From the IMG/VR virus record IMGVR_UViG_3300047552_000616, positions 1 through 51,683 of that record: a stretch of 51,683 nt of DNA; one strand, written 5' to 3'. Shown here one piece after another: positions 19,458-41,865 of this stretch (its first letter is position 1; each line of letters opens with the position of its first letter). Made by a program: the position numbers and the translations under genes. The DNA is from a virus (taxonomy: Duplodnaviria > Caudoviricetes). The notes under the pieces are model-generated. The model was not told the DNA's origin and ran no database searches. It saw nothing but the letters and a program-made list of their open reading frames with translations.

Positions 19458-19647
19458 ACTTCCCATTCGTTTCCCAATCCAAAATACATGCAAACATAGC
19501 CCGACGTATCATATCATCAGGTAATGCTACTACTCGAAAGTGATCACACACATTAGGATTGTGTGATCCCCAATCTTTCCACCATTGCTCAAAGGCTTGT
19601 TTGAGCCGAAGGTCATGACATACTACTGGAGGTTTTACTGTTGCCAT
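19450..19647 (-). CDS. Hypothetical protein
   Basis: 65 aa; fits operon packing. Confidence 0.55.
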   Translation of the reverse strand: MATVKPPVVCHDLRLKQAFEQWWKDWGSHNPNVCDHFRVVALPDDMIRRAMFACILDWETNGKYD

Positions 19648-19660
19648 ATAGGTTATTGTG

Positions 19661-22797: not shown

Positions 22798-22966
22798 TAG
22801 GATCTAATAGTTTAAGACCTTCCTTTAAGCGAAGAAGGTTTGCTATGTAGCGCATCTCATGAACAGTAAGTGGGATTTCTTCTTGATAATCTTTGTTGAA
22901 GGTATCATCCCAAAGATCACCACATATCTTAGCAGAACAGGCTGCTTCAAATTCTTTTGTTGTCAT
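22766..22966 (-). CDS. Hypothetical protein
   Basis: 66 aa, ATG start. Confidence 0.55.
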   Translation of the reverse strand: MTTKEFEAACSAKICGDLWDDTFNKDYQEEIPLTVHEMRYIANLLRLKEGLKLLDPIDPWEESDTD

Positions 22967-23109
22967 AAACCAAATTTATTCCCAACCAAAATCTCCCCTA
23001 GATACAGACAAGCATCAGGCGAATAGTATATAACATGTTTTGTGTTTTCATCACGACAACTTGAGTTTTAGTTAGCAGTTTGTTACAACTATTGTTTTGG
23101 TTGGGAAAT

Positions 23110-23218
23110 TGGCGAGCGCGGCAGGATTTGAACCTGCAACATGTCTGCCAATTCTGCAAAGTTGACATTGGCTCTGCATCTATTCGGCTTTTGCGTCTTT
23201 ACGTTCCGCCACGCGCAC
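23110..23218 (-). tRNA. Atypical tRNA-like RNA (109 nt) with expanded, non-canonical anticodon/variable region
   Basis: Acceptor GUGCGCG/CGCGCUC+GCCA, D-arm GCG-GAACGUAAAGA-CGC, T-arm GCAGG-UUCAAAU-CCUGC; no standard anticodon arm. Confidence 0.7.
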
Positions 23219-23352
23219 ATAAATTAAACGGTAGCCAGGCGCTGAGCATCTTAGCTACCGGGACATTTATACACCTAAATGTATTTGCCTACTGGGCCTT
23301 GTGCCTTCTGCCCTTACCACTATACTCACAGAAACAACATAACATAAAGCAG

Positions 23353-23487
23353 TGGCGAACTGCCTAGCCTGATTTAGTTTATTGTTAGTAGTCATATAGC
23401 GTGGTCAGTTACTCTACATATTTATTTCACGAAGTTCCTTACGGTTGACTTGGCTCTGGAGACAACTGAATATCAAGCTGACAGAGC
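23353..23487 (-). ncRNA. Candidate structured ncRNA ending CGCCA
   Basis: CUGUC-AGCUUGAU pairs with AUCAGGCU-A-GGCAG; inner UCAGUUG/UAACUGA; CC-GUAA-GG tetraloop. Confidence 0.5.
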
Positions 23488-23496
23488 TTAAATGAA

Positions 23497-23669
23497 TGGC
23501 GACAACGGAGTATGTTTCATGTTCAGTTTTCCGATATAATCGCGGGCCGAAGTTTCTATACAGTTGCCTCGACCGTTAAACAGTCCTCGGAATAAGCGGG
23601 ACTCTCCGCACGATGTCACAAGCATTCTAGAAATGCTTCCAGACTTACGTAGCTTTCGCATTGCCGCCA
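23497..23669 (-). ncRNA. Candidate structured ncRNA ending CGCCA
   Basis: Closing stem UGGCGGCAA/UUGUCGCCA; GC-GAAA-GC, AC-GUAA-GU, AAGCAUU/AAUGCUU and GACUG/CGGUC hairpins. Confidence 0.55.
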
Positions 23670-23682
23670 AAAGTAATATCAC

Positions 23683-24042
23683 CTACCGAATTACAGTCTT
23701 TCCCGTTGGCTTAAATTCCCATTGCTTAATTCCACAGTTAGGCTGCTCAGGTAATGCCAAGATCTTCTGTCCCACTTCCACAGCTTCATCATCCTCTGCC
23801 CATGCTATAATCAAAGCATCGAATCCACTATGCTTGGCCCATAGGAAAGGATTAACATCATCCCGGCCTACCTGACTCTGCAAGTATTCATTAAGCTTGT
23901 TGATCTTTTCGTTGACAGCAGCTTGAGAATATTCTTGTGGGGCTTCAGTCGCGGGCGCTGTAGGTTCCGGCTCAGCTTTAACTTCAGGAATCTCAGCCAG
24001 AGATTTGAGTGTCTTCAATTTACTTAGGTCTAATTTACCCAT
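23683..24042 (-). CDS. Hypothetical protein, first gene after sigma54 promoter
   Basis: 119 aa; A/P/E linker. Confidence 0.65.
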   Translation of the reverse strand: MGKLDLSKLKTLKSLAEIPEVKAEPEPTAPATEAPQEYSQAAVNEKINKLNEYLQSQVGRDDVNPFLWAKHSGFDALIIAWAEDDEAVEVGQKILALPEQPNCGIKQWEFKPTGKTVIR

Positions 24043-24085: not shown

Positions 24086-24102
24086 TAGCAAGAACCATGC
24101 CA
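24086..24102 (-). promoter_or_regulatory. sigma54 -24/-12 promoter (ncRNA and replication operon)
   Basis: TGGCATG-GTTC-TTGCTA, intergenic, 44 bp before ATG 24042. Confidence 0.85.
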
Positions 24103-24540: not shown

Positions 24541-25416
24541 TTATTCCATATTAAATATATACTGCGTTATCATACTCTGCAACTGTCGAACATTTCCCAA
24601 CAATGAAAACTCCATCAAACTATCCATTAATGGTTTCCATTCTATGTCATCGGGATCTTCAACCCCATACTTCATCGCGATAGGTTCGATATCTTCTCTG
24701 CGGTTTCGCAATGGCAATATTCTCAACGTAAATGTAGCTAGTCGCCAGTAGAGATCTTCCCTCAACACTGCCATGGGGTTCTGATGTGTAGCTGCTATCA
24801 CCCGTGTGTCGAATGGGATATCTCCTAGTGCTCCAATAGGTCTAGCTTTATGTTCCTGTAAGGCTCTCAATAACTTAGCCTGCAATGGCTTAGGCATATC
24901 TCCAATCTCATCTAGGAATAATGTGCCCTTGTTAGCATAGAATAACAATCCTTCCTTATCCTCATACGCTCCCGTGAAGCTACCTTTCTTGTGACCGAAT
25001 AGCTCGGACTCTACTAGGTAGTCAGGCAAGCTAGTGCAATTCAATGCTACGAAATTCCCGACCCTATTCCCATGCAATGCTCGGGCAATAGTCTCTTTAC
25101 CCGTCCCGGTCTCCCCTAGAATTATCACGGGATGGTTTTCTATGGCTAGCCTGCGGACTATATCTTTCAGCTTAAGCATCTCGGGATTCTTGGTGATGAA
25201 TTTCCTTAGCTCAAATTCACATTCGATACTGGGGATCTTTAGGTCAGTGTATTTGGTTTGGATTCCTCGCCAGAAAGTATTAGCTTGCTGGCGATCACCC
25301 ATTGTGTAGAATCCTTCTACGATTTTAAGTTGCTGTTGAACAATTAGGGGTAAGTGTTCAATGTGTTGGAGGATTGTTAGACCAGATGTTGCTTGTTCGT
25401 GTAGGGGGATAGGCAT
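24541..25416 (-). CDS. sigma54-dependent transcriptional activator (NtrC-family bEBP AAA+), lacking C-terminal HTH
   Basis: GETGTGKE, FVALNC, ESELFGHKKGSFTGA, LFLDEIGDMP, LQAKLLRALQ, RVIAATH, REDLYWRL, PLRNRREDI, GNVRQL; ends ~11 aa later. Confidence 0.95.
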   Translation of the reverse strand: MPIPLHEQATSGLTILQHIEHLPLIVQQQLKIVEGFYTMGDRQQANTFWRGIQTKYTDLKIPSIECEFELRKFITKNPEMLKLKDIVRRLAIENHPVIILGETGTGKETIARALHGNRVGNFVALNCTSLPDYLVESELFGHKKGSFTGAYEDKEGLLFYANKGTLFLDEIGDMPKPLQAKLLRALQEHKARPIGALGDIPFDTRVIAATHQNPMAVLREDLYWRLATFTLRILPLRNRREDIEPIAMKYGVEDPDDIEWKPLMDSLMEFSLLGNVRQLQSMITQYIFNME

Positions 25417-32670: not shown

Positions 32671-32687
32671 TAGCAAAAAGCATGCCA
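32671..32687 (-). promoter_or_regulatory. sigma54 -24/-12 promoter
   Basis: TGGCATG-CTTT-TTGCTA, intergenic, upstream of 32559. Confidence 0.85.
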
Positions 32688-33998: not shown

Positions 33999-34014
33999 AG
34001 CACATAGAATGCCA
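33999..34014 (-). promoter_or_regulatory. Candidate sigma54 promoter
   Basis: TGGCATT-CTAT-GTGCT, GG-N10-GC, intergenic, upstream of 33918. Confidence 0.55.
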
Positions 34015-41848: not shown

Positions 41849-41865
41849 TGGCATGTTTATTGCTA
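41849..41865 (+). promoter_or_regulatory. sigma54 promoter of major capsid gene
   Basis: TGGCATG-TTTA-TTGCTA directly after the terminator. Confidence 0.9.

What the first reader, a model, noticed from the sequence alone, without database searches (positions are those of the whole stretch)
23110..23669. Tandem cluster of three structured RNAs, each ending in CGCCA
Seen: downstream of the sigma54 promoter at 24086, an ORF-poor stretch holds three minus-strand folds with end-to-end closing stems. They are 23669-23497 (..UGUCGCCA), 23487-23353 (..GUUCGCCA) and 23218-23110 (..GCUCGCCA). The first two have GNRA tetraloops and G-U pairs that favour the minus strand. Inference: a processed ncRNA cassette of CCA-ended, possibly tRNA-mimicking RNAs (decoys or sponges for host defence or translation factors).
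Basis: partly seen in the sequence, partly recalled or inferred. Interest (0 to 1): 0.75.

Follow-up and report, generated by a model that had tools for sequence, protein, structure and literature searches.

The report
Phage tRNA-like scaffold RNA with variable insert
Only the third of the three proposed RNAs is a true tRNA look-alike, and it belongs to a widespread phage family that keeps a leucine-tRNA-like frame while each phage carries a different structured insert where the anticodon arm should be.

Summary
The window is a complete 51.7-kb phage genome. The stretch 22967-23682 (minus strand) holds no conserved ORF, and the three stated sequences do end in CGCCA.

Only one of the three is a tRNA mimic. 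Element 3 (23218-23110) has a 7-bp acceptor stem, a Leu-type D arm, a canonical T arm, a discriminator base and an encoded CCA. A 55-nt hairpin replaces the anticodon and variable arms. A covariance model built from 24 relatives, without the window, scores it 74.5 bits (E 5e-19) and finds nothing else in the genome.

In 31 distinct relatives the frame is nearly invariant. The acceptor stem covaries. The insert is unrelated from phage to phage and runs from 32 to 505 nt. In one related pair the insert shows 6 compensatory changes and no broken pairs.

Element 1 is a 180-nt strain-variable insertion closed by a 9-bp helix, so its CGCCA is base-paired. Element 2 does not fold better than shuffled sequence, and its CGCCA sits in a small hairpin loop.

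I read the locus as a mosaic of RNA modules downstream of a sigma-54 promoter, with one natural tRNA-scaffold RNA. Processing and function are inferred, not shown. The closest precedent is T4 RNAC/RNAD.

The parts
24541..25416 (-). Phage-encoded sigma-54 activator (AAA+ domain of a bacterial enhancer-binding protein), 291 aa
   Evidence: Pfam PF00158, 3.5e-54. The same search method found relatives in 230 IMG/VR stretches.
24087..24102 (-). Sigma-54 promoter consensus TGGCATGGTTCTTGCT, upstream of the 119-aa ORF and the RNA region
   Evidence: Exact match to TGGCAY-N5-TTGCW. A like promoter directly follows the activator gene in most related loci.
23683..24042 (-). 119-aa ORF of unknown function between the promoter and the RNA region
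   Evidence: ORF list. No Pfam family. No relative in viral or metagenome contigs.
23490..23669 (-). Element 1: a discrete 180-nt module closed by a 9-bp helix (UGGCGGCAA with UUGUCGCCA). It is present here and absent from a variant contig.
   Evidence: MFE -54.1, z -2.30. One 151-nt contig of run X6 joins 23489 to 23670 and skips exactly these 180 nt, with 7 letters fitting both sides. No other copy found.
23310..23501 (-). It is held at near identity, as isolated short contigs, in three other freshwater or aquatic runs.
   Evidence: Contigs of 151-195 nt with 0-1 differences in X3, X4 and X5, from three studies. The fold is not better than shuffles, z -0.47. No exact copy in IMG/VR or JGI metagenome contigs.
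23347..23365 (-). Small hairpin (7 pairs) with the second CGCCA in its loop, followed by a U-rich tail. It is terminator-like but weak.
   Evidence: 1 site found against 1.2 expected in shuffles, so not significant in itself.
23219..23270 (-). Hairpin CGGUAGC...GCUACCG followed by the leader UUUAAUUUAU, immediately 5' of the tRNA-like RNA
   Evidence: Inverted repeat I2 and fold. A U-ending leader (AUUUAU or AAUUU type) precedes 23 of 29 family members.
23212..23218 (-). tRNA-like RNA, acceptor stem 5' strand GUGCGCG
   Evidence: Pairs with 23120-23114, with one U-U at 2:71.
23193..23211 (-). tRNA-like RNA, U8-G9 and the Leu-type D arm UGGCGGAACGUAAAGACGC. The D loop is two nucleotides shorter than in T4 tRNA-Leu and has only one G of the GG pair.
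   Evidence: Alignment with T4 tRNA-Leu and the Rfam tRNA alignment.
23138..23192 (-). 55-nt insert in place of the anticodon and variable arms: a 5-bp plus 7-bp hairpin with a 10-nt loop
   Evidence: Constrained fold. The insert alone gives z -3.07. Rfam places 49 nt where the 17-nt anticodon arm belongs.
23121..23137 (-). tRNA-like RNA, T arm GCAGG-UUCAAAU-CCUGC
   Evidence: The loop is identical in 29 of 31 distinct family members.
23110..23120 (-). tRNA-like RNA, acceptor 3' strand CGCGCUC, discriminator G, encoded CCA
   Evidence: The CCA is encoded in only 6 of 31 distinct members.
22979..23107 (-). Element 4 (not in the finding): a 129-nt structure closed by a 13-bp perfect helix. It starts 3 nt after the CCA and ends 12 nt before the ATG of the 66-aa ORF.
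   Evidence: Inverted repeat I1, 100% complementary. MFE -38.5, z -4.86, 0 of 200 shuffles; the plus strand gives z -2.60.

Best explanation
The 716-nt ORF-free stretch is a mosaic of separate RNA modules. It lies downstream of a phage sigma-54 promoter and ahead of the replication genes. Only one module is a tRNA mimic.

Element 3 (23218-23110, minus strand) belongs to a phage family of tRNA-scaffold RNAs:
- The frame derives from a class II, Leu-type tRNA. It has a 7-bp acceptor stem, a D arm, a T arm and mostly an A discriminator, and it is kept almost letter for letter.
- The anticodon and variable arms are replaced by an insert that differs in sequence and length in every phage lineage.

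Inferred mechanism:
- The frame makes the host treat the transcript as a pre-tRNA.
- RNase P cuts after the conserved U-ending leader.
- The 3' end is trimmed, and CCA is kept or added.
- The result is a stable small RNA that displays the insert as its working part.
- The same cut sets the 3' end of the upstream RNA and frees the downstream message.

What the insert binds is unknown.

Elements 1 and 2 are not tRNA-like. Element 1 is a strain-variable 180-nt insertion whose end-to-end stem comes from terminal inverted repeats. Element 2 is a module shared at near identity with other freshwater sequences but has no fold signal of its own. The three CGCCA words are not a common processed end.
For: Shown:
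- The Rfam tRNA model aligns the acceptor, D and T arms of element 3 at 26.5 bits, with 49 nt in place of the anticodon arm.
- Model R3 was built from 24 relatives without the window. It scores the element 74.5 bits, E 4.8e-19, and this is the only match in the 51,683-nt genome.
- The D-arm word occurs in 35 IMG/VR stretches. By my rule, 32 of 36 occurrences carry the T arm and a matching acceptor strand.
- On the 24-sequence alignment all 360 cells pair. Six of 7 acceptor pairs show compensatory changes, 0 of 500 shuffles reach this, and slid controls pair at 27-45%.
- Inserts are 32-505 nt and unalignable between lineages.
- In four other runs, 22 of the 28 listed contigs cover only 23094-23140 and run on unlike sequence on both sides.
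- The insert is under structural selection in the one related pair examined. L101 against L122 gives 72 pairs, 6 compensatory, 0 one-sided and 0 broken.
- The leader ends in U in 23 of 29 members.
- Only 2 of the 11 word matches in 185,579 species genomes are real frames, both on small MAG contigs, so the element is phage-borne.
- ORFs across element 3 hit relatives only as two split pieces that match the two frame halves.
- Elements 1 and 2 score at most 2.9 bits on R3 with filters off.
- Element 1 is skipped exactly in one contig.

Inferred from established knowledge (recalled, not from a call): RNase P recognises the acceptor/T-arm helix and prefers U at position -1. Bacterial LeuRS does not read the anticodon.
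Against: - No transcript data. No RNA run holds the stretch, so transcription, processing and stability are all unshown.
- ARAGORN at default settings calls no tRNA, and the Rfam tRNA score is below the gathering threshold (26.5 against 29).
- The D arm's invariance is by construction, because it was the search word.
- The acceptor pairing was partly required by my extraction rule (at least 6 of 7 pairs).
- Insert folds are only modestly better than shuffles: mean z -1.07, with 5 of 30 below -2.
- Structural selection on an insert is shown for one pair only, on a structure derived from those same two sequences.
- The window has U-U at acceptor pair 2:71 and a G discriminator, unlike most members.
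- The skipped form of element 1 rests on a single 151-nt contig of depth 4.
- The isolated element-2 contigs could be low-coverage sampling of the same phage.
Confidence: 0.55

Rival explanations
1. Element 3 is a true tRNA-Leu gene interrupted by an intervening sequence. The sequence is removed from the RNA to give a decoding tRNA.
For: - The frame is Leu-like, and A is the discriminator in 23 of 31 members.
- In L102 the element sits inside an array of ordinary tRNAs.
- The shortest member is 82 nt, the size of a class II tRNA.
Against: - No anticodon stem-loop can be made from the ends of the inserts. Their first and last letters differ in every lineage.
- The 32-nt and 42-nt inserts do not form an anticodon arm either.
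- ARAGORN with introns allowed gives only a forced low-score Asp(GUC) reading.
- No group I intron match at gathering score in 10 loci with long inserts.
- The phage has no RNA ligase, RtcB or CCA enzyme. Bacteria have no known enzyme for short tRNA introns (recalled).
Confidence: 0.08
2. The frame is only a tRNA punctuation mark. It is a cutting signal for RNase P and 3' nucleases that separates upstream and downstream RNAs, and the insert is unconstrained filler that drifts.
For: - The insert is hypervariable in sequence and length while the frame is invariant.
- The leader is conserved and ends in U.
- Most inserts do not fold much better than shuffles; 25 of 30 have z above -2.
- The element sits between an upstream RNA region and downstream genes.
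Against: - Six compensatory and no disruptive changes in the L101/L122 insert.
- Inserts of 161-505 nt are kept in compact phage genomes.
- The window's own insert gives z -3.07.
- A short motif, CAGAGCCAA..GUCAAC, recurs in unrelated inserts and in element 2 (seen by eye).
Confidence: 0.17
3. One reading: three processed, CCA-ended, tRNA-mimicking RNAs form one cassette.
For: - Three CGCCA words in 560 nt against about 0.44 expected.
- Similar words follow the first two, UCGCCA-UUCAUUUAAGCUCUGU and UCGCCA-CUGCUUUAUGUUAUGU (D3).
- Relatives hold tandem tRNA-like RNAs.
Against: - Elements 1 and 2 have no T arm and no acceptor/D architecture. No tRNA match at E<=10 and at most 2.9 bits on R3.
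- The CGCCA of element 1 is inside a helix, and that of element 2 is in a hairpin loop.
- Element 2's fold equals shuffles.
- The CCA is not conserved even for element 3.
Confidence: 0.05
4. Elements 1 and 2 (and perhaps 4) are small mobile DNA insertions of the MITE kind. Their closing stems are terminal inverted repeats with no RNA function.
For: - Element 1 is a precise 180-nt indel. It has 9-nt inverted ends and similar 7-nt words on both flanks, TTACTTT and TTCATTT.
- Element 2 has 13-14-nt imperfect inverted ends. It appears as isolated near-identical contigs in three other studies.
- Element 4 has 13-bp perfect inverted ends.
Against: - No second copy of element 1 or 2 anywhere: nhmmer against about 115 loci, and exact words in IMG/VR and JGI metagenomes.
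- The terminal-repeat pattern gave 119 or more stretches. None resembles element 1, and 100 of 119 lie in open frames, so they are chance matches.
- The flanking 7-mers are not identical.
- The folds of elements 1 and 4 are better on the transcribed strand, which DNA repeats alone do not explain.
Confidence: 0.15

Closest known systems
Bacteriophage T4 RNAC and RNAD (species 1 and species 2 stable RNAs)
   Same: - Small stable RNAs encoded in tandem beside tRNA genes.
- RNAC carries a T arm and an acceptor-like end, and RNAD ends in CCA.
- Their roles are still unknown (passages read in PMC3014915 and PMC9697503).
   Different: No sequence or model relation. T4 RNAC scores 13.9 bits, E 0.69, on the family model R3. 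RNAC has a long 5' extension rather than an insert in the anticodon position. That these RNAs are processed by RNase P is recalled, not read here.
Class II tRNA-Leu
   Same: A 7-bp acceptor stem, U8, a D arm of the GGCGGAAU..GUAAAGACGC type that aligns with T4 tRNA-Leu, the T loop UUCAAAU, and an A discriminator in most members.
   Different: - No anticodon arm and no regular long variable arm.
- The D loop is two nucleotides shorter, with one G instead of GG.
- Below Rfam's tRNA threshold and not called by ARAGORN.
Engineered tRNA scaffold for expressing recombinant RNA in E. coli
   Same: The same design: the anticodon arm of a tRNA is replaced by a cargo RNA, so that the cell processes and stabilises it as a tRNA.
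   Different: That scaffold is man-made. The principle is recalled; of PMC3753655 I saw only the search listing and the start of its abstract. Here the design occurs naturally, with a Leu-type frame.
tmRNA
   Same: A tRNA-like acceptor/T-arm domain with foreign RNA inserted where the anticodon arm would be.
   Different: - No tmRNA called by ARAGORN or Rfam.
- The insert is 55 nt, without a tag reading frame or pseudoknots.
- No G3-U70 pair.
Bacterial Y-RNA-like YrlA of the sigma-54-dependent rsr-yrlBA-rtcBA operon
   Same: A tRNA-mimicking non-coding RNA transcribed from a sigma-54 promoter under a dedicated activator. That operon arrangement is recalled; the papers appeared in search listings only.
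   Different: - Rfam YrlA scores 14.3 bits against a gathering score of 69.
- In YrlA the RNA ends lie in the Ro-binding stem, not in the acceptor stem (recalled).
- The phage has no Ro (TROVE) or RtcB gene.
GOLLD and ROOL large phage RNAs
   Same: Structured phage RNAs of unknown function encoded near tRNA islands, sometimes with tRNAs embedded in them (passages of PMC12286853).
   Different: No Rfam match to either family, in the window at gathering score or in 22900-23800 at E<=10. The modules here are much smaller.

Membership tests
tRNA (Rfam RF00005) | Score at or above the curated gathering threshold (29 bits) | tested here: not met
   26.5 bits, E 0.0041 in a 901-nt search. No match at gathering score in the whole window.
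tRNA (Rfam RF00005) | Acceptor stem of 7 pairs, T arm with the UUCRANY loop, D arm, discriminator and CCA | tested here: met
   GUGCGCG with CGCGCUC (one U-U), GCAGG-UUCAAAU-CCUGC, D stem GCG with CGC, then G and CCA.
tRNA (Rfam RF00005) | Anticodon stem of 5 pairs with a 7-nt loop | tested here: not met
   49-55 nt stand in its place. ARAGORN finds a tRNA only with a lowered threshold and a forced intron.
Phage Leu-type tRNA-scaffold RNAs (family defined here, model R3) | Match to a covariance model built from 24 members without the window | tested here: met
   74.5 bits, E 4.8e-19, the only match in the genome. Ordinary class II tRNAs score 26-29 bits.
Phage Leu-type tRNA-scaffold RNAs (family defined here, model R3) | A lineage-specific insert between the D arm and the T arm | tested here: met
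   A 55-nt insert unrelated to those of 30 other distinct members, which run from 32 to 505 nt.
Phage Leu-type tRNA-scaffold RNAs (family defined here, model R3) | Membership of elements 1 and 2 | tested here: not met
   Best minus-strand scores are 2.9 and 0.6 bits with filters off.
tmRNA | tRNA-like domain plus tag reading frame; detection by ARAGORN or Rfam RF00023 | tested here: not met
   ARAGORN finds 0 tmRNA, also with a lowered threshold. No Rfam match.
YrlA / Y-RNA-like | Rfam RF02553 gathering score and a neighbouring Ro (TROVE) gene | tested here: not met
   14.3 bits against 69. No TROVE or RtcB in the phage.
Group I intron in a tRNA gene | Match to Rfam Intron_gpI in the insert | tested here: not met
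   None in the window. None at gathering score in 10 loci with long inserts. The window's 55-nt insert is too short.
Sigma-54-leader RNA of related phages (family defined here, model R2) | Match to the 127-position model with three covarying helices | tested here: not met
   The window's best minus-strand match is 2.1 bits with filters off. Ten related loci score 42-124 bits.
MITE-like mobile insertion (elements 1 and 2) | Terminal inverted repeats | tested here: met
   Element 1 has 9 nt. Element 2 has 13-14 nt, imperfect.
MITE-like mobile insertion (elements 1 and 2) | Several copies in different contexts, and a target-site duplication | tested here: not met
   No further copy. The flanking 7-mers differ at two places.

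The most novel reading that the evidence does not exclude
Phages have a so far undescribed class of natural tRNA-scaffold RNAs. A Leu-tRNA frame is kept nearly invariant across unrelated phages, so that host RNase P, the CCA enzyme and perhaps LeuRS (which ignores the anticodon) accept it. This frame presents a fast-changing structured cargo that acts on a lineage-specific host or phage target. Examples would be a decoy for tRNA-directed defence nucleases, or a charged but non-decoding tRNA that diverts a tRNA-dependent enzyme. The sigma-54-driven RNA region of this phage would then be a small arsenal of exchangeable RNA modules.
Probability: 0.3. Interest if true: 0.8.

Novelty: new variant of a known kind. 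Interest (0 to 1): 0.6.

Why it matters
Phage-encoded tRNA look-alikes such as T4 RNAC and RNAD have been known for decades without a function. This locus points to a much larger family: 35 IMG/VR stretches from a single 19-nt word. Its anatomy is unusually clear, with an invariant tRNA frame, a covarying acceptor stem and a free cargo position.

That anatomy gives a direct experimental handle. The frame can be kept while the cargo is swapped or deleted.

If the cargo is the active part, these RNAs would be a natural counterpart of the engineered tRNA scaffold. They would also be a new layer of phage-host conflict or gene control.

The finding matters for annotation too. Standard tRNA finders miss these genes, and spurious ORFs are called across them.

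Tried and rejected
- Close relatives of the window for covariation in elements 1 and 2. The search for related loci with the 119-aa and 227-aa neighbours found none in viral contigs. The 119-aa ORF found none in metagenome contigs. blastn against the phage collection gave no match. nhmmer of the upstream 478 nt against all loci gave no hit. The structures of elements 1 and 2 therefore remain untested by comparison.
- An alignment of the roughly 200-aa downstream proteins was too divergent to scan with.
- MAFFT plus RNAalifold on the leader RNA failed because the alignment was out of register. mafft-qinsi and mafft-xinsi are not installed. Single-seed covariance models solved this.
- RNase P RNA and group I intron readings of the upstream RNA rested on short word likeness seen by eye. 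I dropped them because the order of the elements does not fit and Rfam has no match.
- Antisense targets of the window's insert in its own genome: only one 11-mer, about what chance gives.
- The sigma-54-like word inside the insert (23135-23150, one mismatch) arises from the T stem. Other members lack it.
- The terminal-repeat scan for a MITE family gave only chance matches.
- Expression: no RNA holder is listed for the stretch. The run labelled RNA-Seq (X6) is probably DNA.
- Parts of the stretch without cover in runs X3-X6 say nothing.
- Supplementary tables of PMC10690425, a catalogue of 10,006 candidate viral RNAs, could not be opened. That catalogue may already list this family or the leader RNA. 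In its main text I saw only passages on five tRNA-overlapping candidates.
- Four full-text searches found no description of a Leu-type tRNA frame with variable inserts in phages.
- Structure prediction, fold search, complex prediction, the large protein searches and the atlas were not used.
Full report
What the window is

The window is a complete phage genome of 51,683 bp with direct terminal repeats. It encodes a sigma-54 activator at 24541-25416 on the minus strand (Pfam PF00158, 3.5e-54). It carries three exact sigma-54 promoter consensus sites, one of them at 24102-24087. Downstream on the minus strand lie:
- a 119-aa ORF;
- a stretch with no credible ORF, 23682-22967;
- a 66-aa ORF and a 227-aa ORF;
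- replication genes: a PD-(D/E)XK nuclease, an AAA_24 protein, DNA polymerase and primase.

The phage has no integrase, reverse transcriptase, RNA ligase, CCA enzyme, RtcB or Ro.

Checking the observation

- Element 1 folds better than shuffled sequence on the minus strand only: z -2.30 against -0.23.
- Element 2 does not: z -0.47.
- Element 3 is unremarkable as a free fold: z -1.30.

ARAGORN and Rfam at their curated thresholds find nothing in the window. With a permissive threshold, the only notable Rfam match in 22900-23800 is the tRNA model on element 3. It scores 26.5 bits against a gathering score of 29. The acceptor, D and T arms are aligned, and 49 nt stand in place of the 17-nt anticodon arm.

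The CGCCA of element 1 is paired inside a 9-bp closing helix. The CGCCA of element 2 is in the loop of a small hairpin. Three CGCCA words in 560 nt exceed the 0.44 expected from the genome-wide count, but they do not mark one kind of RNA end.

Element 3 and its family

The activator served as a handle to fetch 13 and then 80 related phage loci. One of them, L064, holds a clear homologue of element 3 at the same place. It has the same D and T arms, a compensatory change in the acceptor stem, another insert and no CCA.

A scan of IMG/VR with the 19-nt D-arm word gave 35 stretches. By my rule, 32 of the 36 occurrences carry a T arm followed by a 7-mer that pairs with the 7 letters before the D arm. 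One further occurrence is cut by the end of its locus, and three failed my rule. With two MAG contigs and the window, this makes 31 distinct sequences.
- The frame reads GAGCGCG-UGGCGGAAUGUAAAGACGC ... GCAGGUUCAAAUCCUGC-CGCGCUC.
- The T loop is UUCAAAU in 29 of 31.
- The discriminator is A in 23, G in 4 and U in 4.
- The CCA is encoded in 6 of 31.
- The insert ranges from 32 to 505 nt and cannot be aligned between lineages.

On a MAFFT alignment of 24 members without the window, all 360 cells of the 15 frame pairs are standard pairs. Six of the 7 acceptor pairs have compensatory changes, no shuffle in 500 reaches this, and slid controls pair at 27-45%. Two caveats apply. The D arm is invariant by construction, and my extraction rule required at least 6 of 7 acceptor pairs.

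The model built from that alignment scores the window's element at 74.5 bits (E 4.8e-19) as the only match in the genome. Ordinary class II tRNAs score 26-29 bits and T4 RNAC 13.9 bits. Elements 1 and 2 score at most 2.9 bits with filters off.

The D arm aligns with that of T4 tRNA-Leu but is two nucleotides shorter and keeps only one G of the GG pair.

Of the 11 matches to the word in one genome per species (185,579 species), only two are real frames, both on contigs of about 3 kb. The rest are chance matches in coding DNA. The element is therefore phage-borne.

In four other environmental runs, 22 of the 28 listed contigs cover only the T-arm and acceptor half (23094-23140). They diverge at once on both sides. 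This shows independently that the frame is shared and the insert is not.

Is the insert filler or cargo?

Insert folds are on average only a little better than shuffles. The mean z is -1.07, and 5 of 30 fall below -2. The window's insert gives -3.07.

L101 and L122 are the one pair of related long inserts that I compared. They are 89% identical. All 12 substitutions in paired columns form 6 compensatory double changes, with none one-sided or broken. The structure was derived from these two sequences, so this is suggestive rather than proof. It still argues against pure drift.

I could not rebuild an anticodon arm from any insert, including the shortest, 32 and 42 nt. Rfam finds no group I intron in ten loci with long inserts. 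I therefore rank the interrupted-tRNA reading low.

The letters just before the frame end in U in 23 of 29 members, often AAUUU or AUUUAU. This fits RNase P's known preference, which I recall rather than tested. A sigma-54 promoter lies within 2.5 kb upstream in only 4 of 29, so the family is not tied to sigma-54.

Elements 1, 2 and 4

- Element 1. Laying contigs of four runs on the stretch showed one contig that joins 23489 to 23670 and so skips exactly element 1. Element 1 is thus a discrete insertion. It has 9-nt inverted ends and similar, but not identical, 7-mers on its flanks.
- Element 2. Three runs from three studies hold 23310-23501 at 0-1 differences as isolated short contigs.
- Mobility. 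Both patterns would fit small mobile modules, but I found no second copy of either element in any collection. The scan with the terminal repeats returned only chance matches: 0 of 119 are similar to element 1, and 100 of 119 lie in open frames.
- Element 4. A fourth element, 23107-22979, has a 13-bp perfect closing helix and the strongest fold signal of the region, z -4.86 on the minus strand.
- The 64-aa ORF. It has no relatives in about 115 loci and no Pfam family.

The syntenic RNA of related phages

In ten related phages, the gap between the sigma-54 promoter and the conserved gene of about 200 aa holds a different, well-supported structured RNA.
- It has three helices and 15 pairs, and 95.4% of cells are paired.
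- 14 pairs show compensatory changes, and 0 of 500 shuffles reach this.
- The window's stretch does not match this model: 2.1 bits. L064 matches weakly: 8.9 bits.

The window's upstream RNA is therefore not a detectable member, despite a few shared words seen by eye.

Comparison with what is known

The nearest precedent is the pair of T4 stable RNAs, RNAC and RNAD. They are encoded in tandem next to tRNA-Arg, have a T arm or a CCA end, and their roles are still unknown (passages in PMC3014915 and PMC9697503).

The design, a tRNA frame with cargo in the anticodon position, matches the engineered tRNA scaffold and, more loosely, tmRNA. The tests for tmRNA, YrlA, group I introns and ordinary tRNA all fail on a defining feature (see Membership tests).

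Four full-text searches found no description of this family. The supplementary catalogue of candidate viral RNAs (PMC10690425) could not be read.

Verdict

What is shown:
- a widespread phage-borne family with a covarying tRNA frame and a lineage-specific insert;
- this window's element 3 as a clear member of it;
- element 1 as a strain-variable insertion;
- no tRNA character in elements 1 and 2.

What is inferred: transcription from the sigma-54 promoter, processing by RNase P and 3' trimming, stability, and a working role for the insert.

Noticed in passing
L035:4366-4492, L005:4423-4545, L039:4430-4554, L004:6030-6158, L031:4472-4601, L036:4893-5017, L052:4466-4593, L078:4700-4820, L065:4366-4489, L042:4488-4602, L129:285-403(-): A structured RNA of about 125 nt with no Rfam match. 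In most of these phages it lies between the sigma-54 promoter after the activator gene and a conserved gene of about 200 aa. It has three covarying helices (95.4% paired, 14 of 15 pairs compensatory, 0 of 500 shuffles) and the conserved words UGACUU and GUUGAAYAGUAAC. By eye there are two likely pseudoknots: the loop of the first hairpin with the segment before UGACUU, and GACUU with AAGU after a GUGA loop.
   Followed up: partly
window 22979-23107 (minus strand): A 129-nt element closed by a 13-bp perfect helix, directly after the tRNA-like RNA and just before the ATG of the 66-aa ORF. It gives z -4.86 (0 of 200 shuffles) and is the best fold signal of the region. It may be a 5'-UTR structure or another RNA module.
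   Followed up: partly
window 24087-24102(-), 32672-32687(-), 41849-41864(+); one-mismatch sites at 33999, 35791, 48992: The phage appears to run several operons from sigma-54 promoters with its own activator. There are 11 sites at up to 1 mismatch against 4.25 expected. Relatives of the activator occur in 230 IMG/VR stretches, most with a like promoter just after the gene.
   Followed up: partly
L124:5008-5880, L125:5020-5407(-), L002:4395-4656: Other phages hold two or three different tRNA-like RNAs with inserts, in tandem. In L124 they are separated by about 500 nt of non-coding sequence.
   Followed up: partly
L113:8960-9075(-) and L124:5335-5470: The two loci share an RNA-like stretch upstream of their tRNA-like genes: CCCGYGCCUGUGCUGGCCGA ... 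GGACNCUYGCGGCGGG, whose ends can pair. It was seen by eye and not found by nhmmer.
   Followed up: no
window 23450-23466, window 23161-23178, L110 and L100 inserts: A short word, CAGAGCCAA(U)GUCAAC, recurs in element 2, in the loop region of the window's tRNA-like insert and, in similar form, in the inserts of L110 and L100. Its meaning is unknown.
   Followed up: no
L004:6174-6247: An ordinary-length tRNA (49.7 bits) at the position where relatives have long tRNA-like RNAs. Its anticodon loop is UUACUAA (anticodon ACU as read by ARAGORN) and its variable arm is short, which is odd for a serine tRNA.
   Followed up: no
window 19518-19590 (minus strand): A low-score tRNA-Arg(CCU)-like fold in the intergenic gap 19494-19660, found only with ARAGORN's lowered threshold. 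Related loci L010 and L011 carry a true tRNA-Arg(CCU) at 66 bits.
   Followed up: no
L102:202-583 and L102:8141-13176: A 78-kb phage contig with a tmRNA gene (76 bits) and an array of eleven tRNA matches, two of them long tRNA-like RNAs.
   Followed up: no
L141:2120-2150(-) (T4 RNAD) and window 23640-23655(-): T4 RNAD holds GCUACCGGUAAGUCG, and element 1 holds GCUACGUAAGUCU. Similar words (ACGUAAGUC, GGUAAGUG) stand near the 5' end of the RNA regions of L007 and L005. This may be chance.
   Followed up: no
L121:1567-2121: One family member has a 505-nt insert that contains words like the group I intron R and S elements (GAGACUAGAAGC, GAUAUAGUCC). Rfam gives no intron match at gathering score.
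   Followed up: partly
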